From positions 1 through 56,917 of the forward strand of contig MU271478.1 in the NCBI GenBank assembly GCA_021432655.1: a DNA stretch of 56,917 nucleotides, read 5' to 3'. Positions within the stretch are counted from its first letter, which is position 1, and the number at the start of each line of letters is the position of its first letter. Of the stretch, positions 2,092 through 49,392 are shown one piece after another. Source of the stretch: Atractiella rhizophila. Lineage: Eukaryota. Made by a program: the position numbers and the translations under genes. The notes under the pieces are model-generated. The model saw only the letters and a program-made list of their open reading frames with translations, did no database searches and had not been told where the DNA came from.

Positions 2092-5000
2092 TTAAGACAA
2101 TGCGTGCACAAGGTGGTCGTCTTTTTGAAGTTCCAAAATCCAGTGCTGTTCTGAACAGAAATCAAGAAATTTCTTCAAAGTGGGAACACTGGTGAGAGTG
2201 CGTCGAGAACCGAAGATGATTAACTTGACTTTGGCACGAGTGAAGCAAACATTCAATCTGCGCCAGTCGCGTAAGAGATCGCCAACCTGAACGTATTGAC
2301 CATCAGTTTTAATCTATGAGTGTGGTTACAAGCAGGCTTACTTGATGTTCGGGATTTGACCTCGTGAGAGACATTAGAATGCAATCTTTGTCCCTCCCTT
2401 GGCTCTTATCGGCAGTCAGGACTTCAATTTGATTGTGTTGCCTCAGTCGTTGCGAAAGAAGTTTGATTTGCTGTCGATACAAGGCTATCACCCCAATGGA
2501 CGACTCCTTAACGCCAGCGGCCAAGAGCGCGGCACTGGTCTGTAGATGCAGGCATCAGAGACGGCACTGATTCTGATCGAGGAAAGCAAACCTGAGAGAT
2601 CAACTCTGCTTCGACATCGTTTTGTATCAAGTGACCCCCCGCCAGCTTCTTCTCCAAACCAGGTACGTTATCGGTATTTACGAAGGCGACACTTCGACTG
2701 GAAAGCAACGGTTGAGTTCTCAGTGATGCTCGCTACAAGGAGGACTTACTTCGGATCTAAGAGAATCTTCAACCAGCAGGCATCCATGGCGCATGTGCTA
2801 GATTCGTGAAAAGTAGCAAACTCTTCAACTCTCGGCAGGAATAGCTGCCTTCGAGCAACGTCTTCAGACCCGCATCGGAGCCTTCCATCGTAGATGAGGC
2901 GATTAGAGACTTCCATGATGTCTGCATTCATACGATACTGTTGCGTGAGGTAGACAATGGCTTGAGGGTGTGCATCGGAGAGGCGTTTGAATAAGCTGAC
3001 GTCCAATCCCTTCTCTCTCGCTTCGATACTCTTCACAAGCGGAGGGAGCTGGTTGTGATCCCCCACAAGAACGAACCGATCAGCGAAGCGGAGAGGTCCG
3101 AGGCAAGTAGGAAGAGTTATCTGAGAAGCCTCGTCTACGATGCAGTAATCAAAATGTCGACGCGAGAAAAGCACGCTGCATGAAACATCAATAAATATGT
3201 TCGCCGTAGTGGTTTCACATACTGATCGATGGCCAAACAAGTCGTGGCGACAATTTGAGGAGTCATGAGCTGGTGATTGAGTGCTTCGATTGACATGGCA
3301 GGGCTGTCTGGGGAGATGGTGAATCGTTGGATAGCATGTGCGACCTGCAAAAGTCAATGTTTATTCTCATTTGAGACACGAACTCACTTTATCTGGGTTG
3401 CCGATTCGAAGGATGCTGAGACCGGAATCCTTGACTTTCTCGAGGATTGTGTCGACTGCAGAGTGGGTGTAACTCGTCAATAGAATCGTCTTGCCTCGAG
3501 CCGCTAGAATCTCAATAACTTTAGCAATAGTGGTGGTTTTCCCCGTCCCAGGCATTCCGAGGAGAAGAGCATAGTCTTCCGTCTTCAAAACCTTCATGAC
3601 CGCTGCTTTTTGGTCGTCATTAGCACCGTCGAGCTTCAGGTCGTCCAAATCGGCCCCTACAGTGAATCTTGGCTCCTCCAGATCTACTATCAACCTCCTC
3701 CTTCTTTCATCTCCATTGTCGTAGAAAAGCTGCGCTAGGTTGTCTCTCACTCTCCCCATCCCGGCTCCTAATTCATCCCTATCGATTCGAAATTTCGTGT
3801 TTTCTAGACCTTGACATCTTTCTGGGAGTTTGAGTTGTCGATCCAGTCCCAAGGTCACGAAAGAGTGGTTTAGATCTAAGATAAAGCCTCGCGCAAATGC
3901 AAGCACGACTCCGTCAATGGATACGACGATGGGGTCGCCACGAGTCAAGTGACCAGATAGTAGAGAAGTCGACGGAAGGGAAGGGTCTTGGATAAAGCGA
4001 TAGACAAAGCGTGACCATCGCGCATTTGTGGCTACAGTTGCTGAATCGAAAGATGAATCCAAGACCATGTCAGCCAAACACCTAACCAATATGTCAACCA
4101 GTTTGCTGAGCAATGGTGACGAACATCTGTACCTTCCATGATTTGCTCGTTCTCCAGCAGCCATCGTCCATATCTCTTTCTTTGACCGTGAACCCTCCCT
4201 CTCTTCCAAGCTGATGAGTTCTTCCCAATGTCGAAAGAAGTCAGTGTGCCTGTTTGTGAGATGACTGGTCTTTCTCTTGTACAAGTCGATCAACCAATCG
4301 TCAGCTTGCGGTTCCTCGACTTGCAAGTCCTTCTCGACACTCTGTGCACCATTCTGAACAAGCTATCGCGACAACCACAAGTTGGATGGACGTACCCGGC
4401 GGTAAAGTAGACAAGAATCTACAACATAGCAGCGCTCGCAGGCTCTCTTCTCATCGATTGAACGAGGAAGAATACCCTTCCAACACTCTTCAACGTCGTC
4501 CGATGTTGCTTCCTCCGCCTTCCAAGTCGAGAGCGTTAGGTGAGAATGGTGCATGAAGTGAGCCATTCGATTCCTGCTCTGGACTAATCCTCGAATCTCC
4601 TTCTGCGCTCCCCAGACGCGATGTACCGAACCGCTTTGGGTATAATAGAGGAGACCTGACGCGATTTCTTCGCCTAGCACGAATAATCAGGACATCACAT
4701 TCGTGAAGTGCAAGGGACGAACCATAGCGTTCGCTCATGAGGAGAGTGTACAGCATGGTCTGCGCACGATGTTCGAGCCCTCCCTCACTTTTCCCGGTTT
4801 TGATCTCAAGCGGTAGAGTCATCTTCGTCCCCTGCACATCTGCCTTCACGGATGCATCGATCTTTCCCTTCAACCCCCACTTTGGACTCCAAACATCTTC
4901 CTCCACATCGAATACGCGCTCAATCTTCAGCTTTTCTTCCCTCGTCGCACGCCCATCGACCATCCTTCCCTCATCCTCTCCCAAAACGAATTTCTTGCCG

Positions 5001-6474
5001 AACTCCGCTGCCGCCTTCCCAATTCTGTTTTTAAGCTCAAAAGTGGCCTTATCTACCTCCAATCCCATGCTCCATAGAGTTTCGATTTCCTTCTTGCAGA
5101 CATCTTCGCACGTCGAATCGACAAAAGCCTCGTCCCATTTCTCAGCTTGCAAACATCGTTGAATGACTTCATGTCCCAGATTCCCGATTAACAACCCCAT
5201 TGAACTTGTCCCATTCGACCTGAACTTTTCTTGCAAAATCGGTTTGCGGACACATTGACTGGAATCCGAGATCTTTGTCGAGGAGAGCAGGAGATCCGGA
5301 TGGAGGACGAGGAGCGTAGGAGTCTTGAGGGAGAGGATAGCAAGGTATGGTGGAGATGGAGCGGGCGAAATGAGGTGGATCACGTCTCCGCGTTTGATCG
5401 GGGACGAGTACCAATCGTCTTTGAGCAGGATTTCGCCTTCTTGCTCCTCTATGTCCGCGCCCCCAGTTGATATCCTCAGCTTTGGACCTCCAGGTTCGTT
5501 GAGGATGGGAAGGCGAGAGACCGTGAGATATTTGACTGATTCTTCAACATTGTTTTTGACGGAGAGGACGCGGAAACGGAAATAAGGCTCATCCTTGCTG
5601 AAACCCTTGGGAGCGACGGTTGGTAGGTGAGTCTGTAAGGATCAGGTTAGCAGAGCATGGCATGGAGTGAATTGGATACCTGAACCAACGATGGCCCTTT
5701 CTCCTTCGTAGCTCTAGCCGGGGAGGACTTCTTCCTTGGTGGTTTGATGGGGGACACATCGAAGTCGTCCCAATCTTCCACATCGTCAATAAGATCCTCC
5801 ACATCCACAACCTTGAGGATCTGCTCCGTCATTTCCGCCACCACTTTCTGCACTCCACCCTGTGCTTCCTTCTGATCCTCTCCATCCGCAAAATCATCAT
5901 CCATATCCAATCCCTCCGCCAGATCCCTCAAGTCATCGCTCGTCAACGTTATTCTTGCTTTCTTGCTCTTAGTCGAACCAGAGATACTATCCCGTCGTTT
6001 CCTCTTCGGGCTCACGCTGTTCTTGCGCTCGCGTTCTCTCCGAGGACTGTTGAGCGGTACGGTCTGGAGAGCTTTGCGTTGCGGAGGAGGAGTGGTGGCG
6101 CGGAGGTCGGTTGTGACTGGTTTTGACGGTAGTTTTGGAGCGAATGTCGGTGACGTTTTGGTGTGAGCACTTTTCGGTGTGGCAACCGTGGGATTGAAGC
6201 GCGAATGCGAAGATTTTGCGATATCTGCATTTCTTTGTTGCATAGACGTCTTCCTCTCCCGACTCTCATTCATGGATTTCCTCTTGATAACCTCCAGTTC
6301 CTTCTTCGGCAGGCTCTTCGCCATAATACCACTCTTCTTGGCTATGGGTTTCTTTGGTTGAGAGAGAGGAAAAGGGGGCGAAGAGGAAGGGAATTTGTCA
6401 AAGTCGTCATTGTCGAGTCCAGAGAGGAGATCAGCCATGAATGCGTCTTCTGCACTTGGAGCTACTCGTGACAT
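2092..6474 (-). CDS. DNA2: DNA replication nuclease/helicase Dna2 (multi-exon)
   Basis: Nuclease motifs EEDVWSPKWGLKGKIDAS, PLEIKTG and HRAQTMLYTLL; Fe-S Cys (CERCY..C); SF1 helicase GMPGTGKTT, DEASQ, LVGDHNQLPP, QYRM, TADKSQGRD and RRLNVCFTRAK. Stop TAA at 2092-2094. Confidence 0.96.
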
Positions 6475-6867
6475 CTTGGACGACTTGACGAGAGGGGCAT
6501 TAATGGCTTTTGGGAAGCGTAACTTCGTTTGTGACGATGCTACAGCTTGGATTCGTGATGTTACCCTTGATAGCCAGATGAGAATACGAACATGTGGTTT
6601 TACCCATATTTTTCTCGATCCCGGTACTCCTTAACACAGCACTTACTAAATCACTGATCAAACCACTAAGAGATAAGAGAAGACGTAGGTGTCGTTCCTG
6701 GGCGCGTTGGTTGTTTTTGGACATTGTACGCGCTTTGTCCTTCTCGAGTCCCTAGCGTCTCACTTAGCCGTAGCCTAATCAGAAACTACATCACAGGTAA
6801 CTTTTTTCTGCCACGAGAGTAGCTGGAGGTGCTTAGGGTGCTTACTTTGAAGGTTATTTGAGGTGCA

Positions 6868-8396
6868 ATGCTGGTTCGTACTGGGACAAGGGGTTTGTTA
6901 CGTTTGTCGGCACGAAGGTGAGTATCTACTTCATTTCCTACACTGGGTAAAGACCTTGCGAAAGCACACGGCCTGTCGTCTTTGCACGAGCTGCGGTCCC
7001 GACATGGAGCCAGGCTTCGTTTCCTCAACAGAGGAACATCTCTTTTTGGCCTTTTGGCTCTTCTGCTCCAAAGACAGCTCCTCCCCCACCTCCAGCGCAG
7101 GTCGAACCTCTTGCAGCATCTTCACCACCTCCTCCAGCACCAGAGCCCGTCCTCGAAGCCGCTGAAGTAACCCCTTCTCCTGCTTCAGACGCCGTCATTC
7201 CTTCAGAACCACTAACTGAAACCGCTTCAAACTCGATATCGACATTCTCGAGCGCTGTGCAAGAGCTCGCAGCTATCAATCCCGACCATACGTTGCTTGT
7301 CTCATGGATGCAAAAGATCTTCTGCCATCTCCACGACTTCACGCACCTGCCATGGCTATACACCATCCCTCTCTTTGTCATCTCCTACCGTCTTCTCCTC
7401 GTCCCGACTGTCGCCACAGGGCTTCGAAATACGATTCGATTGCAACGACTGAATCCAGAAATGACAAAGTATTCGAACGCAATCAAGGACGCTCAGCTGC
7501 TGAACGACCCTCAACTGGTGCAGACGAAGCAGCGCGAATTGGTGTTTTGGTTCAAGAGGAACGATGTCCATCCTCTCAAAAGCATGAAGGCGCCATTCAT
7601 GCAGGCTGCCGTCGCCATCCCCATCTTTTTCGGACTCAAAGGACTGGCCGAATGCACACTCCCAAGCATGGTCACACAGGGAGCGGCCTGGTTTACGGAT
7701 CTGACGGTCTACGATCCCACATTCGCTCTACCAGTGATTGGACTGGGCACCACTTTGGTCACTATTTGGGTGGGTGGTTCTTCCCGTTTCAGAGTTTCAA
7801 GGAGCGAGCTAAGACATGCTGCCATAGACCGGAACGAGCGAGTTCAGCACAGGTGCTAAGCCTCCAGCATCACAACAAGGCGTTATGAGGTTCATGACCT
7901 TCCTGATCTGCGCATCAGGGTTTTGGGTCGCATACTTCCCAGCCGTATGCTTCAATTCACTCGGATAAAGTAGAGTCTTCTAACATTGCATATAAAGGCC
8001 GTAACATACTATTTCTGTGTGAACAACCTCTACTCCTTCTTCCAAGCCATGGCGTTCCGCACTCCCGCTGTCCGTCGTTACTTCGACATCCCAAAGCCTG
8101 TTCCAGGTCCGAAACCGGGAGAGCCGGGGTACATCGAGCCGCGGTCGCTGAGGGAGATGGTTTCAGAGATGATGGAAGATCGGGTGAGGAAGCAGGCGGA
8201 GAAACAGGGCAAGAAGATCCTGAACCGAGAACAACAGAACGAGCAGGAGAAGGTGGACTTTTATCGGGAGTTGGAGCGACAGAAAATAGAAAGGCTCCAG
8301 GGTGGCACGAGGGCAGAAAACGTGGTGGAGGACAGGATGAAGGCCGCTAATGAGAGGAGGGAGCAGTGGAAGAAGGGCCTCAAGACTCAAAAGTAG
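6868..8396 (+). CDS. OXA1: Mitochondrial inner-membrane insertase, Oxa1/YidC family
   Basis: Arg-rich presequence MLVRTGTRGLLRLSARR (ATG 6868), then LHDFTHLPW, HPLKS..PFMQ, GAAWFTDLTVYDPTFALP, YFCVNNLYSFFQ..FRTPAVRRYFDIP and a charged C-tail. Confidence 0.85.
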
Positions 8397-17325: not shown

Positions 17326-18675
17326 TTAAAATTGAGCGACCCTCCAAAACTTCTCTCTCTCCAACACGACCACATTTGCCACCTTCGCCTCTTCCCCCTC
17401 TCCCATCCTCAACAACCCTTTACTTTCGAATCCGACATCCTCAAGGTACCGAATCATCTTCGCATTCCTGTGATCCGGATCGCACACGACTCTCTCAGTT
17501 CGAGAGTCGGCCATGAAGACGTAATGACACAGGCTGGTCAACCAGGCTTTCACACGATGAGGACCACGTTGGGTGGAGAGAGAAGAGCCGACAAGGAAGT
17601 GCAGGCCTCGATCGTACGGGTGCGGAGTGTAAGAGATGGGGAGGTGAGATGGAGGGAGGGAGAGATAATGCGCCAACTTGTCTTCGAAAGCCCAATAAAT
17701 TTCGACTGCAAGGTCCACCAAGAAACCGTAAGTATTTCTTTTTCTTCCATGAGGAGAAGATGTAGACGCACAGTAACTGAACCACCCTTGGGTAGTCATC
17801 CTATCCTTCACGTCTTTTTTCCCTTCCTGTTCCCCATCCGGAACAACTCCTCCAACCTTCCACTCCCCCAAACTAGGTATCGTCCTCCCTCCCCCACCCT
17901 CAAATCGCTCAAGCAACCACTTCCTCCTCGCCTCTTCATCCTCCCTCCAATCTCCCCAAAACTCATCCACCCTAGGATCGTTCAACCACTTCTGTAAAGT
18001 CGCTATCGCACCTTCTTCATGCAACGGGAAAACACGTAAAGAGAGCGAGACCTGTGTTTCCAACGTAGAGAGGGAGGGAATGAGCCTTTCGTAGAAAGGT
18101 TTATTGAAAGAAGGGAGAGGAGGACGTTTGGGATGCGAGCGAGGATGTGGTTGGATCTTGTTCGTCGTTGGAACACCTCGTGGAACAGTGATTGATGGAA
18201 GAGTGGGAAAGGGGACTGGAGGAGAAGTGAAGTTGAGATAGAGCTGGTGTAGGCTTTGGATTGGGATGAGAACTGCGTTTTCTTGAGGAGGTGGAAAACC
18301 TAGTGCTTGAAGCGCGGAGGAGAGAGAATTAGAGGAAAGCGAAGAGAGCAGCTTGTCCGTCTTTTCAGTCGTTGATGTCACAGTTTGAGAGATTTGAGAT
18401 TCATCGAATTTGAAAGGTATCTTGAGATGACCTTGTTGAACCATCGTATCCTCCCTGTTCAATATTTTCCCTGATACCCATAATCCATACCCTATTCCCC
18501 AGAGCTCGAGCGGAGTGATCACAGTGGAAGAGCTCAGAGGGTCGGCTGCAGAGAAGCTGAAAACCTTCCCATCGATTTTGATGCTCGGGTCCTTGGACTC
18601 GAGGCTATGGGACACCTCAATCGACGGCGAAGGAGTGATCTGGAGTGTTCCGATTTGATTGTCCTGACTGGTCAT
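17326..18675 (-). CDS. Hydroxyornithine/hydroxylysine N-acyltransferase (AlcB/IucB/SidF/SidL-like GNAT), siderophore biosynthesis
   Basis: KWLNDPRVDEFWG, (Y)FEIYWAFEDKL, YDRGLHFLVG..RGPHRVKAWLTSLCHYVFMADSRTERVVCDPDHRNAKMIRYL. One in-frame 66-nt intron at 17706-17771. Confidence 0.88.
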   Translation of the reverse strand: MTSQDNQIGTLQITPSPSIEVSHSLESKDPSIKIDGKVFSFSAADPLSSSTVITPLELWGIGYGLWVSGKILNREDTMVQQGHLKIPFKFDESQISQTVTSTTEKTDKLLSSLSSNSLSSALQALGFPPPQENAVLIPIQSLHQLYLNFTSPPVPFPTLPSITVPRGVPTTNKIQPHPRSHPKRPPLPSFNKPFYERLIPSLSTLETQVSLSLRVFPLHEEGAIATLQKWLNDPRVDEFWGDWREDEEARRKWLLERFEGGGGRTIPSLGEWKVGGVVPDGEQEGKKDVKDRMTTQGWFSYCASTSSPHGRKRNTYGFLVDLAVEIYWAFEDKLAHYLSLPPSHLPISYTPHPYDRGLHFLVGSSLSTQRGPHRVKAWLTSLCHYVFMADSRTERVVCDPDHRNAKMIRYLEDVGFESKGLLRMGEGEEAKVANVVVLEREKFWRVAQF

Positions 18676-18705
18676 GGTTCCTCGATGTTGACGATATCCT
18701 GTTAC

Positions 18706-35403: not shown

Positions 35404-37164
35404 TTAGTATCTGCCTCCGTATCCTCCATATCCGTATCCATTCCCACCACTCATGCCTCCACCGCTAAAATTGAACTGACCCTGTCCACCCTGTCCGAAA
35501 GTGAACGGTTGCTGCTGCCCCTGCTGAGGCGCGTTCCAAGCCATACCTCCTGGCTGCATATGAGCATGAGAGGGATCGTAAGGGGTGTACTGTTGCACAG
35601 GGGGAGGAGAAGCCTCGTACATCCCATATGCGGATGAAGGATGAGGCTGATATTGCTGTTGCTGTTGCTGGGGAAAGGGAGGGTAGGGATTAAGATGAGG
35701 CTGATAGTCTGGATGGAACTGCGGAGTATGTGATGGGCCTGGAGGATAGGAGAGGTTGATGTCGTAGGCGGTGGATTCGCGTGAGAAGTTAGCGCGACCT
35801 CCTCCTCTCCCACCGCGACCCCGCTCATGTCCACCACGCCCGCGTCCACGACCTCGTCCTCTTCCACGAGGGGTCCACAAGGTTTCTCCTCCCCCATCTC
35901 GCTCGCGGCCACCAGCTTCAGATGTCGACGCTACTGAGCCAGCACGCTCCGCCGCAGGGGAAGAGTAATTGTCATCGTTTTCTCTTCTCCTATAAAATAG
36001 AATGGTATTGACACGCGATGGAGAGATAAGAAGTAAGAAGGACTACCCTTTCTTCCCTTTTTGAGCCTTTTTAAATTCTCTCTCCTTCTCGTCATCGCTC
36101 CACTCCTGCTCCTCAGCCTCCTCATCCCACAAATTACTTGCATCCGTCCCTTTCCCGCCTTCTCTCCTCACCACACTTTCAATCACGACCTTCGTCTTGT
36201 TGGGCGGATACCATATTTCTTTCCCCGCCCAGCCTTCCGTCCCTTCCGTGCCATCTGCGGTATCCTGAGGTTCAAGAACTTCTCGACGTAAACGGACGGT
36301 ATAGAACGGTCGCATGGTGGGTCCAAAAACCTCGAAAATATGTCCCAACGGCTTTCGCTCACGGGTACAGACAAGTGAACCCTCATCGAGCACGGTGTTC
36401 CCTGTGGAAGCGATGACGAGCACATTAGATATGATGCTTTGTACGTTCCCCAATTTCGAGATCTGCTCGTCCGGGTCGATCGTGGGAAGAGGGGGGAGGT
36501 CGTCCTCTTCAGACACCGTCACTTCGTTCTTTGTCTTCAGCGGCACCTCTGGAGTGGGAGAGCGAGAGGCGGCAGCAAGAATTGGGGGTTGAGGACGACG
36601 ACGGGTACGTGGGGATGCGGAGAGGGCGGAAGAGGACGACGAGGTTTGTGAGGATGAAGAGGACGAGGAAGAGGAGGAAGCTGAGGAATGAGAGCGAGAT
36701 CTCTTCTTCCCCTTGGTCACAGTAGACGTGGGAATCTTGTCGTCTTCCCCTTCTGACCCATCCATTTCTGTTATTTCTAACGGACGAACGACGCCACGTG
36801 CCTCCATCTCTTTCTCTATCTCTCCCAACAGTCCGCTCTTTACACGCACCTCTTGCACTGCACGCGAGATGTGCGACGGAATGGAGACCTCACCGCTTGC
36901 CGTTTGGATGACCACTTCTTTCTCTTCTGGTGGGCCAAGCTCAGAAGGGTCAAGCGAGGCCATGATATGTGATATGTCATCCGTCACTACTTCTGCGCCG
37001 TCTTCCTCTTCTAAATCATCCAGCTCATATATTTCTTCCCCTTCCACCTTGATGGGAATGTCGTCTTCGACCTTGACAGCCGAGGAGGTTGCAATGGGCA
37101 TGGCTGCATTGTCAATGAGCATTTCTGCGTCAGTTGTCTGTGAGCTGGGATGTGAGGAGGACAT
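35404..37164 (-). CDS. NAF1: H/ACA snoRNP assembly factor Naf1
   Basis: KTKNEV, LGNVQSII..VLVI, VLDEGSLVC...LGHIFEVFGP..RPFYTVR, KGTDASNLWDEE..EWSDDEKE. One intron near 35991-36045 leads to an RGG/Pro-Tyr-rich C-terminus. Confidence 0.92.
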
Positions 37165-37895
37165 GGTTGTTCAGTTCTGGTTGGCTTGGGTTGGTAGCAA
37201 AAATTTCGGGAAGCCAGATTAGGTTCGGTAGACTGACAGTAAGCAAAACATGTTACTTTATTAACGGCAACATAGGCAGTCACACAATAGTGGAGACAGG
37301 AATGGGAGACCACCGTAGAGGTATTTGTAGTAAGAATAGTTGAAAGACTGAGAGCGGTGGCGCCTGTGAAAAGAGTAAATCTAAACTCGCCTTCTTTCGC
37401 CAGCGCTTCCTTCTATCCCCCGTCTTCGCAGCACATCCTCGACTTTTCAAAACACTTCCTTCGACTCTCTGTGTTACTATCCGCTCCCCACACGATAATC
37501 CAACACCTGCTTCAATGCAGATCACTTCCCCATCCTCACGTCGAGTACCTGACTGCCGTCCACCATCACTCTCTAATACTTCCAGTAGTCTGTCTCTGCT
37601 CACTGCCGCAATGAGCGAATACTGTGTGGTTTTATGCGAGGACAAAAGGGCATAAGGACGCTTACCTGTTGCCATCGCCACTCAAGCCCATCGGGGAAAG
37701 ATTCGAGGACCTTTGCAACGGTTGAGGTCGAAAACTTCGAACAAATGATAGATGTTCCTAATACTAGAAAGTTCTGAGCTTTGACAAGCCTTCCTGGTCT
37801 TGTTCCCGCTTAATCGGCAAGATCGATCGATGCTGCAGAGTCGATCACAAAAACAACGATGCTCGTCTCCGGCAGCCTCTCAGAGTCTCACTCCC

Positions 37896-45686: not shown

Positions 45687-47271
45687 TCAAGCGGAGTTAA
45701 ATACGGCTGCTCGAATTTTCAGACAACAACTGAGGATCTGGAGCTCCTCGTCTCCTCCATCTGTCAAATACTTGTCCGTCTCTGCAAGCGCTATGCCAAC
45801 TGCCGCTTTTATGCGGGGAGACAGAAGGGGGGAGAGGATGAAAAAATCGTGCAACTACCCCAAGTGTAACGTTTGAAGGTCAGTATCGAATAAGTACTGG
45901 TCGGCAGAAGACTGAAGACGAAGGAGGGAGCCGTCGGAAGAGAGGACAGACCTGCGAAAGAATCTGACCCGCGCTATAACCCTCCATCATGACCGCTTCC
46001 ACCTGCTTCTTCACCTTTTCGTACCCTCCCGCACTGCCACTCATAACAATGCTTCCATCAGGCTCGACACCTAGTGCTTCTGCCAGACTACTGAGGACTT
46101 CGGAGGGAATAATTCCAGCTATTTCTTCTACACTCGCAGTTGTTATCGGATCTTCTGCGGAAGGATGAAGTCGTGAGGCGGACTGGAGGAGGGTGATAGC
46201 TCGCCGAAGGTCACCTGACGAGACTGTGAGGAGTGTATCGATGGCCTATGCCACACTCGTTAGAATGGTATGACTATAGAGCGGCTGCCGGTAAGGGGAA
46301 ACGAACGGAGTCTTCGCAGTAGACCTTCTCATTTTGGCAAATCTCAACCAGCCGAGATTTTGCATTCGTGTTGTCTAAAGACTTGAATCGGAACTTGGAG
46401 CATCGGGAAGTGATGGGCTCGATTATTCTTATTACTCTCTCATAAGAAGTAAGACTAGAGTTAGTAGAGATAACACACCGCGTGACATAATTGCAGACAA
46501 GACAGAACCTGGTTATCCTGCTGTATGTCTCCATGATTCTTCGAAGTGCAGACTGAGCATCCGTTGTCATTGAATCCGCTTCATCTAGAATAATGATCTT
46601 GTATGGAGGTCTATGGACGCAACGAATTGAATGGTGCATAAACTCGTTAGTCCTGCTCCATTCACGGCTGGGATAGGACGAACGCAGTTTTGCTCGTTTG
46701 TTCAGTAACAGCGGCTTTGGCAAAGGTTTTGATCTTCTCCCTTACGACTGCGATGCCACGCTCGTCGGATGCATTCAGCTCAAGAACTCGTGAATGGAAG
46801 AGGGGTCTAAATCGCGAGTTTTAGCTATGAACCATGAAGGAGGATGCGAAGGAAACCTACCCAAATAGCTGGTGGCACAATGCTAAAATAGTTGAGGTTT
46901 TTCCAGTACCAGGAGGGCCGTAGAACAGCATGTGAGGGAGCTAATAGACTATTCCTCAACAGTGTGTAGGCGTTTGGGACGGCAGTACATTACTGCTTCC
47001 CAGAGTCTTCCTCAGCACCTGCACGGTATGCTCCTGTGCAGCGACATCATCGATCGTCTTAGGTCTGCTACACACAATTTCCATCGATCCCGAGCTTCAA
47101 TGTCCGTATTCCACACTACCCAGTAAGAAAGAAGACGCACTATTTCTCAACCCACGGTTGCAGCTTTTCGTCCAACTCCGCCTTCCTATTTGCACCATTA
47201 GTAGCACTTGCTCCATTCCCTGCTGTTGAAGCTTTTGCTTGTCCGGCTCGGAGAGCTGCAAACGCGTCCAT
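45687..47271 (-). CDS. RFC2: Replication factor C small subunit (yeast Rfc2/human RFC4)
   Basis: [89 protein letters not shown]. Confidence 0.95.
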
Positions 47272-48211
47272 GAATAGGTAATAACGCGTTGAGATCTCTT
47301 TGAAGTAACAGTTAAGAACAAGAACACGACTAATTCCCGTACTATAAACTATAGTGTGGTGGACCTATCGAAGATGCGAGTTATCCGTTGTCGCCTTATC
47401 CATAGCTAATCCATGATTGGGTATATGTTTCTGAAGGAATAGAGGTGGTTGCGCCTGGGATGGTATGTGATAGTTGCAGAGGGCTTGCATCGAGGCCTTG
47501 ATCTTGGGACAGTATGTAGGAGGTGAACAAGCTGCTTCTGAACGCCATGTATGTTTCTGGTGCTTTCGGACAGCCTTAACGAAAGTGGGTTGTGCCCTTT
47601 CTTTCAGTCATTTGATCGTATATAGCCTCGCCTGTCCACGAGGAACTGTTTGAGGCTCATTTGAACTTGCGTGTGGTGCAAAGTATATTTGGTTAAGAAG
47701 AGTTGTCATGCTTTACTGAAAGAGCGGTGATTATTACGCTCAGGTAGGCTCGATGGCAAGCTCAGTGGGATTACTTCTGCCCCATTCTCATTTGCCCTGA
47801 TGATGGGGTTTGGTGTCACCCTGAGGAAAGTTGGTCTAAGGTGGCAATTATATGCCTTAATATTTCTCAAGTTGGTCTGAGGTAGCAATTATCTGCTTAA
47901 TATGAACCCCCGTCGAGCCGATTCACAAGTGTGTTGGTGACGCTGTATGTGTTGTCCCTTATCTCCAACCCTAGTTCCAAGGGACAACATCCAGTGTCGA
48001 AAGTTAAGTTGTCTCAACTTCGCTTCTCCTAATTCTGTCGAACTGTCCCCTCCCTGTCCTTCACCTTTTGGCGCTCCCAACATTTCTGATATGCACTGCC
48101 CAAGCTAGGTGCAGGAACGGTGAACGGTCAAAGATCCACGACCGCAGGCACACCGAACCCCGTCACAGTTTTGTATTCTTCACGCTGGTTTGTTCAAGGA
48201 GTATTAACAAA

Positions 48212-48282
48212 TCTCGGATGGTCTAACGGTAGGATGCCTGCTGGTCTTGCAGTCGACGGAGGTTCAACTCCTTCTCCGAGAG
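48212..48282 (+). tRNA. tRNA-Asp(GUC)-like gene with a non-canonical anticodon loop
   Basis: Hand-folded cloverleaf: acceptor TCTCGGA/TCCGAGA plus G73; A-box TGGTCTAACGG; D stem GTCT/GGAT; anticodon stem (C)CTGC/GCAG(T) with loop TGGTCTT; T arm GGAGG-TTCAACT-CCTTC. Confidence 0.85.
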
Positions 48283-48287
48283 TTCTC

Positions 48288-48292
48288 TTTTT
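48288..48292 (+). terminator. Pol III oligo-T terminator of the tRNA-like gene
   Basis: TTTTT begins 6 nt after the discriminator base. Confidence 0.7.
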
Positions 48293-48831
48293 GCTCTACA
48301 TGTAAAAAATGTTGCTGAAGCTTGCAGACGCAGAAAATCAGGTTGACAATACGACCTTGTTCCCTCTGGACCCCGTTAGTTGTTCCGTTCATATCTCACA
48401 AAAGCAGCATGCCGTTCCCTTTGCTGTCTTATTCATATGCATCTGATAACACTGTTGCTGGCAAAGAATGAATTGGCATAGCATGATTCATTACAGCTAC
48501 TAATGTCGTGTATTAACTTTCCGAATACTTGGCCTTGGGGCTTCAAGCTGCAGCGGGAACGGGAATCTCAACTAAGAGATTATTCCTTCTCACAGTCTGG
48601 TCGAGATGGGGCCAACTGGCTGGTTCCAGAACATCACAACCGGGGTGGCCATTATGGATAATGTCCCATGTTTGTAGTAAGATTATGCGCCAATTGCACA
48701 ATGGTATATATGGATAACAAAGACAAGGGTACGCTGCCAAAGTTGTACAAAGAAAAGGAACTCAAGCCCAGAAACGGCTTATTCACTTATTCACAACACC
48801 ACTATACACAAATAGAAGTATAACGAGCGAT

Positions 48832-49392
48832 TTAGCGACCCATGCCCCTAGTGACCTTCTTCATTCCAGACGCCTACACAATCCATTAGATTGCATAGAG
48901 AACGAAGAGACAATAAACTTACCTCCTTCAACTTCGCCTGAGCCAACTTGGCTTCCCTGTTGGCCTCCTCCTCGAGCTTCGTGACGTGCTGTTTCGCCTC
49001 TCGTCTAGTCCAGACAAACAATGCGTGAGCATCTTTCTGTGGTTGAAAAGACCTAAATGTTCAAATGCCTACAGGGAAACCTTGCTCCTCTCCAAAGCCG
49101 CTTGTGCGTCTCTTTCCGCCTGAACGGCTCTATTCAACCCGTTCCTCGCATCTGACAAGGCTTGAGAAGTGATGGGTTGAGCACCTCCGATCGTCCTGTC
49201 GTGTTTCCTCAGATTATCGGTGTGAGAAAAACTGTCGGCAGAGTTGCGAGGAGAGTTGCTACGCCTGCCAAACATGCTGCCAGATCTGGTGGTGGAGGAA
49301 GTCGAAGTTCGGCCAGCGTCTCGAGTGGCAGGCGGAGCGCCGCGAGAGGTATTGGTGGTGGTGTTGGTGGTGTTCTTGCGAAAGAGACCCAT
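48832..49392 (-). CDS. Small hydrophilic uncharacterised fungal protein with a coiled-coil C-terminus
   Basis: Spliced: MGLFRK...ARNGLNRAVQAERDAQAALERSKVSL|REAKQHVTKLEEEANREAKLAQAKLKE|ASGMKKVTRGMGR*. It resembles a fungal hypothetical family as I recall it. Confidence 0.75.

What the first reader, a model, noticed from the sequence alone, without database searches (positions are those of the whole stretch)
48212..48292. Intact tRNA-Asp that looks chargeable but poorly suited to decoding: candidate non-translational tRNA
Seen: a 71-nt cloverleaf with a perfect 7-bp acceptor stem, intact A and B boxes, a T5 terminator, GUC at 34-36, G73 and a G10.U25 pair. The anticodon loop is U-G-G-U-C-U-U, so it has G33 instead of the near-universal U33 and U37 instead of a purine. 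It also has a C27/U43 mismatch and G50.U64 plus A51-U63 in the T stem. Established: G34/U35/C36, G73 and G10.U25 are the main yeast AspRS identity elements; U33 and R37 matter for ribosomal decoding; A51-U63 weakens EF-Tu binding in staphylococcal non-proteinogenic tRNA-Gly; many fungi use Asp-tRNA outside translation via ErdS (AspRS-DUF2156, ergosteryl-aspartate). Inference: damage concentrated in decoding and elongation-factor features, with charging and Pol III features spared, suggests a dedicated aminoacyl-donor or regulatory tRNA rather than random decay.
Basis: partly seen in the sequence, partly recalled or inferred. Interest (0 to 1): 0.78.

Follow-up and report, generated by a model that had tools for sequence, protein, structure and literature searches.

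The report
Odd-looped aspartate tRNA gene in fungus
A basidiomycete fungus carries one well-formed aspartate tRNA gene whose codon-reading loop breaks two near-universal rules, so it is probably a poor decoder, but whether it has a special job or is simply decaying remains open.

Summary
At 48212-48282 (+) lies a 71-nt cloverleaf tRNA with anticodon GUC. It is the only tRNA in the window (ARAGORN; Rfam tRNA 43.9 bits). The loop reads U32-G33-GUC-U37-U38, and a T5 run follows.

The window comes from Atractiella rhizophila or a very close relative.

An independent contig set from reads shows the same 71 letters, so the loop is not a consensus error. That DNA contig runs unbranched from unique flank into the tRNA, so it is one locus and not a SINE head. 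Two other runs hold the tRNA plus trailer at 79 of 81 letters inside unlike flanks. In one of them the odd loop letters are probably unchanged, but this is an indirect inference.

No whole genome or more distant relative could be reached. The genome's other tRNA-Asp genes, mature expression, charging and the presence of ErdS are therefore all untested.

My reading is near a tie. A maintained, poorly decoding variant isodecoder with a side use gets about 0.35. A recently disabled gene copy gets about 0.30. The ErdS-donor idea has no direct support, and G33 alone does not exclude translation, as the Candida tRNA-Ser(CAG) precedent shows.

The parts
48212..48282 (+). tRNA gene, 71 nt, anticodon GUC (Asp type), cloverleaf with 7/4/5/5 stems and a 4-nt variable region
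   Evidence: ARAGORN; Rfam RF00005 43.9 bits; sequence read directly
48242..48248 (+). Anticodon loop U32-G33-G34-U35-C36-U37-U38. G33 (48243), U37 (48247) and U38 (48248) are the non-canonical letters; the anticodon is 48244-48246
   Evidence: Sequence. The same letters stand in X1 contig 48101-48282, whose one difference lies in the flank at 48137
48219..48229 (+). A-box region (positions 8-19, TGGTCTAACGG)
   Evidence: Sequence; the comparison with the Pol III A-box consensus is recalled, not run
48261..48271 (+). B-box region (positions 52-62, GGTTCAACTCC)
   Evidence: Sequence; the consensus is recalled
48258..48274 (+). T arm with G50.U64 and A51-U63; a shifted 4-pair register is computed as more stable
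   Evidence: Sequence; energies -3.8 (canonical) against -6.1 (shifted)
48283..48292 (+). 3' trailer TTCTC followed by a T5 run (48288-48292), a Pol III stop signal
   Evidence: Sequence. The matches of X3 record 13 and X5 record 18 both run to 48292
48105..48211 (+). Upstream flank that is also the second exon of a low-level spliced + strand transcript running into the tRNA; unusually alike between isolates (1 difference in 111 nt in X1)
   Evidence: X3 joints 47548>48105 and 47548>48115 (GT..AG), X3 record 12 at 48115-48241, X1 record 5; no notable fold, z -0.29
47377..47548 (+). First exon seen of that spliced transcript. The intron is 47549-48104 (GTATGT...AG), with an alternative 3' site at 48114
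   Evidence: X3 record 10 and joints; splice-site letters read

Best explanation
This is a real, single-copy nuclear tRNA gene of the Asp(GUC) type in Atractiella rhizophila or a very close relative (Basidiomycota, Pucciniomycotina). It keeps what RNA polymerase III and the tRNA-processing enzymes need: A and B boxes, a T5 stop, a perfect acceptor stem and all elbow letters. It also keeps the eukaryotic AspRS marks G73, G34-U35-C36 and G10.U25. Its loop, however, is U-G-GUC-U-U.

My most likely reading is that it is a maintained variant isodecoder. It is made and processed like a tRNA and can still be bound, and less efficiently charged, by an AspRS-type enzyme. It would enter ribosomal decoding poorly for three reasons: G33 replaces the U-turn uridine, U37 removes the purine stack and any m1G37, and the T stem is weak. 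It would then serve a side use of tRNA-Asp, either as an aspartyl donor or as a synthetase-binding decoy.

Shown: the sequence, the fold, that the letters are real in reads, that it is one locus in one DNA data set, and that it occurs in other data sets in another sequence context. Inferred: Pol III transcription, maturation, charging, exclusion from translation, and any partner.
For: The tRNA body is intact while three of the four non-anticodon loop letters are atypical and the anticodon is untouched. If five changes fell at random on 71 positions, three or more landing in those four positions has odds of about 0.002. This is my arithmetic and assumes a canonical ancestor.

The loop is real. 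X1 contig 48101-48282 differs only at 48137, at depth 352.

The tRNA and its 111-nt upstream flank show 1 difference in 182 nt in X1. The neighbouring X1 pieces show 27 in 264 (record 3) and 12 in 374 (record 6).

X3 record 13 and X5 record 18 hold 48212-48292 at 79 of 81 letters, joined to sequence that does not fit the window: 153 nt downstream in X3 and 68 nt upstream in X5. A further X3 record has 82 unlike letters before 48212.

X5's tally of changes has no G>N, T>A or T>C, and its single T>G is at 48819. G33, U37 and U38 are therefore probably unchanged in that copy (indirect).

Precedents exist for tRNAs held out of translation. Staphylococcal non-proteogenic tRNA-Gly has a weak T stem including A51-U63 (PMC7826273, passages). 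A human non-aminoacylable tRNA-Asp isodecoder is described in PMC8007984 (passage citing Rudinger-Thirion 2011). ErdS sequesters tRNA-Asp as a 'prosthetic swinging arm' (PMC13219428, sections 14 and 15).
Against: All comparison data come from the same species or close relatives, and nothing shows conservation over real evolutionary distance.

Which two letters differ in the X3 and X5 copies was not printed (82 rows hidden). The intact loop in X5 is therefore an inference from a tally.

The unlike-flank copies could be recent duplicates, which a dead gene could also have.

C38 is lost, and it is listed as a strong Asp determinant (PMC9976931 section 29). This weakens the 'chargeable' claim.

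The letters ErdS touches in A. fumigatus tRNA-Asp (G50-G52, G57, C20a) are not matched here (PMC13219428 section 14).

The RNA contigs that hold the tRNA carry long flanks, and one reads through the T run. They show Pol II or background transcripts, not a mature tRNA.

The Rfam score is low for a tRNA, and the computed best fold is not the cloverleaf.

Whether the organism has ErdS, or canonical tRNA-Asp genes, is unknown.
Confidence: 0.35

Rival explanations
1. It is a recently disabled copy of a tRNA-Asp gene, a pseudogene in the making. Pol III signals and fold are still intact, loop mutations have removed it from useful decoding, redundancy makes this neutral, and it has no function of its own.
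For: It is a single locus in the DNA run (unbranched X1 contig, only_partly_on_it 0). Its first 30 letters are shared with no other locus there, so it is an outlier among the genome's tRNA genes. It has a C27/U43 mismatch, G50.U64, U38 instead of C38, a low Rfam score (43.9 bits) and a hit lost by the default filters. The computed best fold is not a cloverleaf. Only close relatives are seen to hold it. Most odd nuclear tRNA genes are pseudogenes (general knowledge).
Against: The changes are concentrated in the loop flanks, with an untouched anticodon, a perfect acceptor stem and all tertiary letters intact. A51-U63 is a paired state, not a break. Near-identical copies (79 of 81) sit in unlike flanks in X3 and X5. 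Diversity over the tRNA and its upstream flank is low compared with the neighbouring intergenic DNA in X1.
Confidence: 0.3
2. It is a working, if inefficient, translational tRNA-Asp. It could be a minor isodecoder or, at the extreme, the lineage's normal form. G33 and U37 would be tolerated, as G33 is in Candida tRNA-Ser(CAG).
For: G33 occurs in a translating fungal tRNA (PMC8178436 and PMC5041475, passages). PMC11415595 (passage) says G33 curtails but does not abolish decoding. The anticodon, G73, G10.U25 and the whole tRNA body are intact. The sequence is kept in other data sets.
Against: U37 as well as G33 removes two separate supports of the anticodon (PMC5041475, passages on purine-37 and U33). 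It is a single locus in X1, whereas Asp codons are common and fungi usually carry several tRNA-Asp genes (general knowledge). The first 30 letters being unique in X1 implies that the other tRNA-Asp genes are different.
Confidence: 0.17
3. It is a tRNA-shaped processing signal inside an RNA polymerase II transcript, mascRNA-like or like mitochondrial t-elements. RNase P would cut at 48211/48212 to form the 3' end of the upstream spliced non-coding RNA, so the anticodon loop would be free to drift.
For: In X3 a + strand spliced transcript (exon to 47548, GT..AG intron of 556 or 566 nt, next exon from 48105 or 48115) runs into the first 30 letters of the tRNA (record 12). The 100 nt upstream of the tRNA are unusually alike between isolates. 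The acceptor, D and T features that RNase P and RNase Z use are intact, while the loop is not.
Against: The transcript is very weak (depth 2-4, against 85 for the neighbouring gene) and has no long reading frame or notable fold (z -0.29). A drifting loop would not be expected to keep GUC, G73 and G10.U25. The A and B boxes and the T5 stop fit an ordinary Pol III gene. No such element is known to me in fungal nuclei (recalled; not searched after one search failed).
Confidence: 0.08
4. It is a naturally mistranslating or dual-identity tRNA. It would read GAY codons but be charged by another synthetase, for example GluRS (the D stem and 4-nt variable region recall tRNA-Glu) or ArgRS (no m1G37 block). 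G33 would throttle its use.
For: PMC11415595 (passage) says natural mistranslating tRNAs often carry G33 or A33, and that G33 limits decoding. PMC9976931 section 29 says m1G37 protects yeast tRNA-Asp from ArgRS, and that tRNA-Glu and tRNA-Asn share G73. Here position 37 is U.
Against: No isotype model or reference tRNA set from this lineage could be run. The Glu-like look of the body is recalled, not tested. The full eukaryotic Asp set of Table 1 in PMC9976931 (G73, G10.U25, GUC) is present.
Confidence: 0.05

Closest known systems
Candida albicans tRNA-Ser(CAG) with G33
   Same: A fungal nuclear elongator-type tRNA with G in place of the near-invariant U33. G33 is reported to distort the loop and lower efficiency (PMC8178436, PMC5041475, PMC11415595; passages).
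   Different: That tRNA keeps a purine at 37 (m1G37), has a reassigned anticodon with dual Ser/Leu identity, and is known to translate. Here 37 and 38 are also atypical, the anticodon matches the body's apparent identity, and function is unknown.
Staphylococcal non-proteogenic tRNA-Gly (NP1-NP3)
   Same: Extra isoacceptors kept out of translation and used as aminoacyl donors. They have a weak T stem including A51-U63 (PMC7826273, passages).
   Different: They are bacterial, and the rule is for EF-Tu. The NP tRNAs also have A49-U65, U50-A64 and a UGC/UGU T loop, which this gene lacks (G49-C65, G50.U64, TTC). Their partner transferases and proteogenic siblings are known; here neither could be looked for.
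tRNA-Asp held by ErdS (AspRS-DUF2156) in Dikarya
   Same: The only known use of Asp-tRNA outside translation in fungi. ErdS is reported to keep its tRNA as a prosthetic arm and to read the anticodon through an AspRS-type domain (PMC13219428 sections 14 and 15; PMC7334510 passages).
   Different: Those papers used the ordinary A. fumigatus tRNA-Asp and mention no special isodecoder ('isodecoder' 0 hits). The contacted letters G50-G52, G57 and C20a are not matched here. ErdS in this organism was not testable.
Human non-aminoacylable tRNA-Asp(GUC) isodecoder (Rudinger-Thirion 2011)
   Same: A low-expressed tRNA-Asp gene variant that does not work in translation and acts as a regulatory RNA (PMC8007984, passage). 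The alternative fold computed here is a loose parallel.
   Different: Its changes lie in the T stem and loop, not the anticodon loop, and it binds an Alu element in the AspRS mRNA. Nothing comparable was found or sought here. The original paper was not read.
Ordinary nuclear tRNA pseudogenes and tRNA-derived SINE heads
   Same: A tRNA-like sequence with a defective anticodon loop and a low model score.
   Different: There is no shared 3' tail, a T5 stop lies 6 nt after G73, there is one copy in the window and one locus in the DNA run, and the stems and tertiary letters are intact.

Membership tests
tRNA (Rfam RF00005, cloverleaf) | Score at or above the family's gathering cut-off, with cloverleaf stems | tested here: met
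   43.9 bits against 29, model positions 1-71. ARAGORN also calls it. The hit was lost by the default filters.
tRNA (elongator, decoding-competent) | U33 (U-turn) and a purine at 37 | tested here: not met
   G33 at 48243 and U37 at 48247. The rule is taken from PMC5041475 passages.
tRNA (elongator, decoding-competent) | Conserved core and elbow letters (U8, A14, G18, G19, A21, G53, T54, T55, C56, A58, C61) | tested here: met
   All are present (numbering). The list of positions is recalled.
Eukaryotic tRNA-Asp (AspRS identity set) | G73, G34-U35-C36 and G10.U25 (Table 1, PMC9976931) | tested here: met
   All are present.
Eukaryotic tRNA-Asp (AspRS identity set) | C38, one of 'five strong determinants' (PMC9976931 section 29), and G37, whose m1G blocks ArgRS in yeast | tested here: not met
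   U38 at 48248 and U37 at 48247.
Eukaryotic tRNA-Asp (isotype of the body) | Isotype-specific model score (tRNAscan-SE 2), or likeness to the same genome's other tRNA-Asp genes | not testable with these tools
   No genome is held and no eukaryotic tRNA reference set is available. Collection scans gave 0 hits.
RNA polymerase III type 2 gene | Internal A and B boxes, and a run of four or more T close behind | tested here: met
   TGGTCTAACGG at 48219-48229, GGTTCAACTCC at 48261-48271, T5 at 48288-48292. The consensus is recalled. Transcription by Pol III is not shown.
Non-proteogenic (donor) tRNA, staphylococcal type | Weak pairs at 49-65, 50-64 and 51-63, and an altered T loop (UGC/UGU) | tested here: inconclusive
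   A51-U63 and G50.U64 are present, but so are G49-C65 and a normal TTC loop. The rule is for bacterial EF-Tu (PMC7826273).
Non-proteogenic (donor) tRNA, staphylococcal type | Coexists with canonical isoacceptors and has a transferase that prefers it | not testable with these tools
   No genome.
tRNA-derived SINE or retroposed repeat | Many dispersed copies sharing a 3' tail beyond the tRNA part | tested here: not met
   One copy in the window at up to 3 mismatches. The X1 DNA contig is unbranched from unique flank through the tRNA, and unlike sequence follows 48292 in X3 record 13.
tRNA-like 3'-end processing element (mascRNA type) | Lies at the end of a Pol II transcript, with a stabilising structure just upstream | tested here: inconclusive
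   A weak spliced transcript runs into it in X3. No notable upstream fold was found (z -0.29). Ends cannot be read from contigs.

The most novel reading that the evidence does not exclude
A eukaryotic counterpart of the staphylococcal non-proteogenic tRNAs: a private tRNA-Asp that an AspRS-type enzyme still charges, such as the AspRS domain of ErdS, which is reported to trap its tRNA as a prosthetic arm. G33, U37 and a weak T stem would keep it off eEF1A and the ribosome, so that sterol aspartylation does not drain the translational Asp-tRNA pool.
Probability: 0.07. Interest if true: 0.85.

Novelty: new variant of a known kind. Interest (0 to 1): 0.42.

Why it matters
U33 and a purine at 37 are among the most constant letters of elongator tRNAs. 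A structurally sound nuclear tRNA that lacks both, while keeping its anticodon and most synthetase marks, is rare.

If it is maintained by selection, it would be one of very few eukaryotic tRNA genes kept for a role outside normal decoding. It would also give a concrete candidate for a question raised by the 2026 ErdS structure paper: which tRNA-Asp does the enzyme hold on to?

If it is only a decaying copy, it is an ordinary annotation note: do not count it as a decoding tRNA-Asp. A whole-genome tRNA scan and one tRNA-seq experiment would decide between the two.

Tried and rejected
**Consensus error: rejected.** X1 contigs built from reads give the same 71 letters. X1 may be the source sample, so this excludes an assembly slip but is not an independent isolate.

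**SINE head or dispersed repeat: rejected**.

**Extra identical copies in X1, inferred from contig depth (352 against roughly 240): rejected.** The contig is unbranched at the tRNA's 5' edge. The break at 48282 fits the two haplotypes seen beside it (records 3 and 4).

**My first reading of X3 record 13 was wrong.** I took it to carry a foreign upstream flank and to end at the T run. Checking minus-strand records 9 and 16 shows that its 153 unlike letters lie behind 48292. The 82 unlike letters before 48212 belong to another record that was not listed. My idea that these RNA contigs stop at the Pol III terminator is therefore dropped.

**Searches for relatives found nothing, so no inference is drawn.**
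- Metagenome contigs, anticodon-arm pattern with N at positions 32, 33, 37 and 38: 0 hits.
- Metagenome contigs, 3' 22-mer: 0 hits.
- Genome contigs and viral contigs, 5' 24-mer: 0 hits each.
- Earlier findings by place, sequence and words: nothing on this genome.
- A 16-letter D-arm string in papers: 0 hits.

**No whole genome is held.** The tRNA transcript sequences in the supplements of the ErdS papers might have allowed a direct comparison.

**Structural ideas that failed.**
- A G33.U37 pair closing the loop to three letters is not favoured (-1.6 against -4.7 kcal/mol).
- A triple-helix-like or otherwise special fold upstream was not found.
- The bacterial promoter and terminator scan is irrelevant to a eukaryote.

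**Other checks.**
- A 12-letter motif from the foreign flank occurs nowhere relevant in the window (one 1-mismatch hit at 6403, chance level).
- The part of the stretch without X3 cover (48293-48571) is no evidence of a transcript end.
- The small word shares of the 20 runs I did not lay (X2, X6-X24) are no evidence of habitat or distribution.
- Structure prediction, complex prediction and fold search were not used, because no protein claim depends on them.

Full report
**What is there.** Positions 48212-48282 (+) read as a 71-nt cloverleaf.
- The acceptor stem has 7 Watson-Crick pairs.
- The D stem is G10.U25, U11-A24, C12-G23, U13.G22, with the loop AACGGUA.
- The anticodon stem is C28-G42 to C31-G39, with C27 facing U43.
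- The loop is U32-G33-G34-U35-C36-U37-U38.
- The variable region has 4 nt.
- The T stem is G49-C65, G50.U64, A51-U63, G52-C62, G53-C61, with the loop UUCAACU.
- The discriminator is G73.
- After five more letters comes a T5 run (48288-48292).

ARAGORN finds exactly one tRNA in the window, tRNA-Asp(gtc), at these coordinates. Rfam's tRNA model gives 43.9 bits against a cut-off of 29. E is 2.3e-08 on 301 bases and 4.4e-06 on the whole window, where it is the only hit. The default-filter run missed it, and the model stepped over the loop.

The review of tRNA identity (PMC9976931, section 29 read) lists C38 with G73, G34, U35 and C36 as the five strong aspartate determinants. Its Table 1 (section 6 read) gives G73, G10.U25 and G34-U35-C36 for eukaryotes. 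The same section says m1G37 protects yeast tRNA-Asp from ArgRS; here position 37 is U.

**Whose genome.** The window is eukaryotic, with short spliceosomal introns. A Dna2 exon is 99% identical, and a siderophore-type GNAT reading frame 90% identical, to proteins named Atractiella rhizophila. The next hits, at 32-44%, are other Pucciniomycotina and Basidiomycota (lineage). The organism is thus A. rhizophila or something very close, and not an ascomycete mould. No whole genome is held for the window.

**Surroundings.**
- Upstream, on the minus strand, lies an RFC-subunit-like gene. Its spliced mRNA contig ends at 47241.
- Downstream, on the minus strand, lies a small, very highly covered spliced gene. 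Its contigs cover 48671-49368 and its start codon is read at 49392. It has a poly(A) site at 48671.
- The tRNA therefore sits in a 1.4-kb spacer between two genes.
- In run X3, a weak + strand spliced transcript starts by 47377. It splices from 47548 to 48105 or 48115 (GTATGT...AG, read) and runs into the first 30 letters of the tRNA. It has no long reading frame, and its second exon has no special fold (z -0.29).

**Evidence from public runs.** All runs are kept as contigs. I laid 4 of the 24 listed.

X1 is probably DNA and may be the source sample.
- It covers the whole 3.1-kb stretch and shows two haplotypes beside the tRNA. Records 3 and 4 have depth 155.5 and 82.3, and one of them has 27 differences in 264 nt.
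- One contig spans 48101-48282 with a single difference, at 48137. The odd loop is therefore real in reads.
- That contig passes from unique flank into the tRNA without a branch, and no X1 contig is only partly on the stretch. In that genome the tRNA's first 30 letters thus occur at one locus only. It is neither a repeat nor a plain copy of a multi-gene tRNA-Asp family.

X3 is RNA, because its contigs are spliced.
- It holds the window-like upstream flank joined to tRNA letters 1-30 (record 12, 1 difference in 127).
- It also holds a contig that starts at letter 1, matches through 48292 with 2 differences, and then continues for 153 letters unlike the window.
- A further record has 82 unlike letters before 48212.

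X5 is RNA, with adapters and splicing visible.
- It holds 48212-48292 with 2 differences, after 68 unlike letters.
- Which letters differ was not printed, because 82 rows were hidden.
- X5's whole tally of changes is A>C 1, A>T 1, C>T 2, T>G 1, and four of these five are accounted for elsewhere. No change of a G, and no change of U37 or U38, is therefore on record for that copy. At least one of its two differences must lie near the contig's end, in the trailer.

I read this as follows: the same tRNA, probably with the same loop, exists in another sequence context in related material. It is not proof of deep conservation. The copies could be orthologues in a more distant relative, a paralogue, or a recent duplicate. 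Because these RNA contigs carry long flanks, they say nothing about a mature tRNA.

**Attempts to reach relatives.**
- Two scans of metagenome contigs gave 0 hits: the anticodon arm with the four loop-flank letters left open, and the 3' 22-mer.
- Scans of prokaryotic genome contigs and viral contigs gave 0 hits.
- Earlier notes of this scan held nothing on this genome or sequence. Word searches gave only loose analogues.

**What the letters imply.** G33 is not a bar to translation.
- Candida tRNA-Ser(CAG) has G33 and decodes CUG (PMC8178436, PMC5041475; passages).
- A 2024 review says natural mistranslating tRNAs often have G33 or A33, and that G33 curtails decoding (PMC11415595; passage).
- A pyrimidine at 37 removes the purine stack that supports the codon-anticodon helix (PMC5041475; passages).
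- Together, G33 and U37 should make a poor decoder. This is inference.

The T-stem argument rests on bacterial EF-Tu. The staphylococcal non-proteogenic tRNA-Gly have A49-U65, U50-A64, A51-U63 and an altered T loop (PMC7826273; passages). Here only A51-U63 and G50.U64 apply, and the rule is untested for eEF1A.

Nearest-neighbour energies put the cloverleaf at -20.5 kcal/mol, against -26.9 for an alternative that uses G33 (C16-G33 to G23-C27). They also favour a shifted T-stem register (-6.1 against -3.8). In-silico U33/A37/C38 versions also fail to give the cloverleaf as best fold, so this is a property of the body and not of G33 alone. A G33.U37 pair closing the loop is not favoured.

**The ErdS idea.**
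- ErdS (AspRS fused to DUF2156) occurs in Ascomycota and Basidiomycota (PMC7334510; passages).
- A 2026 structure paper reports that it clamps tRNA-Asp and uses it as a prosthetic swinging arm. It also reports that ErdS fungi keep a separate AspRS for translation (PMC13219428; abstract and sections 14, 15 and 19 read).
- That makes a private tRNA conceivable. However, the paper used the ordinary A. fumigatus tRNA-Asp transcript and mentions no isodecoder (0 hits).
- The letters it reports as contacted (G50 to G52, G57, flipped C20a) are A51, A57 and no 20a here.
- Its supplements could not be opened.
- Whether this organism has ErdS could not be tested.
- I found no paper on an odd fungal tRNA-Asp. 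The mascRNA search failed on syntax and was not repeated.

**Verdict.** The gene is real, single-copy, built like a Pol III tRNA gene and Asp-like by anticodon, G73 and G10.U25. Its decoding loop breaks two near-universal rules and lacks C38.

The pattern is an intact body and anticodon with three atypical loop-flank letters. That pattern, together with the near-identical copies in unlike flanks, leans toward a maintained variant with little role in decoding (0.35). Weighing against this are its singleton status, the mismatch and wobble in its stems, its low model score, and the fact that only close relatives are seen. A recently disabled copy is therefore almost as likely (0.30).

The other readings are:
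- a working but inefficient decoder, 0.17;
- a processing signal for the upstream Pol II transcript, 0.08;
- a mischarged, throttled mistranslator, 0.05.

The specific ErdS-donor reading is possible but unsupported (about 0.07).

Noticed in passing
window 48671-49392 (-): A small spliced gene with very high RNA contig depth in X3 (up to about 94,000) and cover in X4 and X5. Its introns are 48873-48921 and 49004-49071, and a poly(A) tail joins at 48671. It encodes about 147 aa: a Ser/Thr-rich start followed by a coiled-coil-like tail. It has no Pfam family; only a sub-threshold Alanine_zipper hit, 16.9 bits against 23.1. In the three RNA runs laid (X3, X4, X5) nearly all cover lies on this gene rather than the tRNA.
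   Followed up: partly
window 47377-47548 and 48105 onward (+): A weak spliced non-coding transcript on the + strand with a 556-nt GTATGT...AG intron and two alternative 3' splice sites (48104 and 48114). It starts near the divergent RFC-subunit gene and runs into the tRNA gene.
   Followed up: partly
window 48212-48282: Rfam's default 'gathering' run on the whole window returned no hit, although the tRNA scores 43.9 bits against a cut-off of 29 with laxer filters. Atypical tRNAs can be lost by the speed filters.
   Followed up: yes
window 47867-48130 and 48283 onward: Run X1 holds two haplotypes, with depth 155.5 and 82.3, and 18 substitutions plus 9 gaps in 264 nt. This fits a heterozygous or dikaryotic source. 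The contig break at the tRNA's 3' end is such a bubble.
   Followed up: partly
window 47828-47896 (+): Two direct copies of a 28-nt unit, 41 nt apart and 89% alike, inside the intron of the + strand transcript.
   Followed up: no
window 45880-47241 (-): An RFC-subunit-like AAA+ gene with three short introns (46807-46860, 46941-46988, 47068-47140), confirmed by spliced X3 contigs.
   Followed up: partly
window 2746-6630 (-), 17326-18705 (-), 36043-37170 (-), 6951-7859 (+): Ordinary fungal genes: Dna2 nuclease-helicase, an MbtK/IucB-type siderophore acyltransferase (Acetyltransf_8), a Naf1/Gar1-domain protein, and an Oxa1-type insertase.
   Followed up: no
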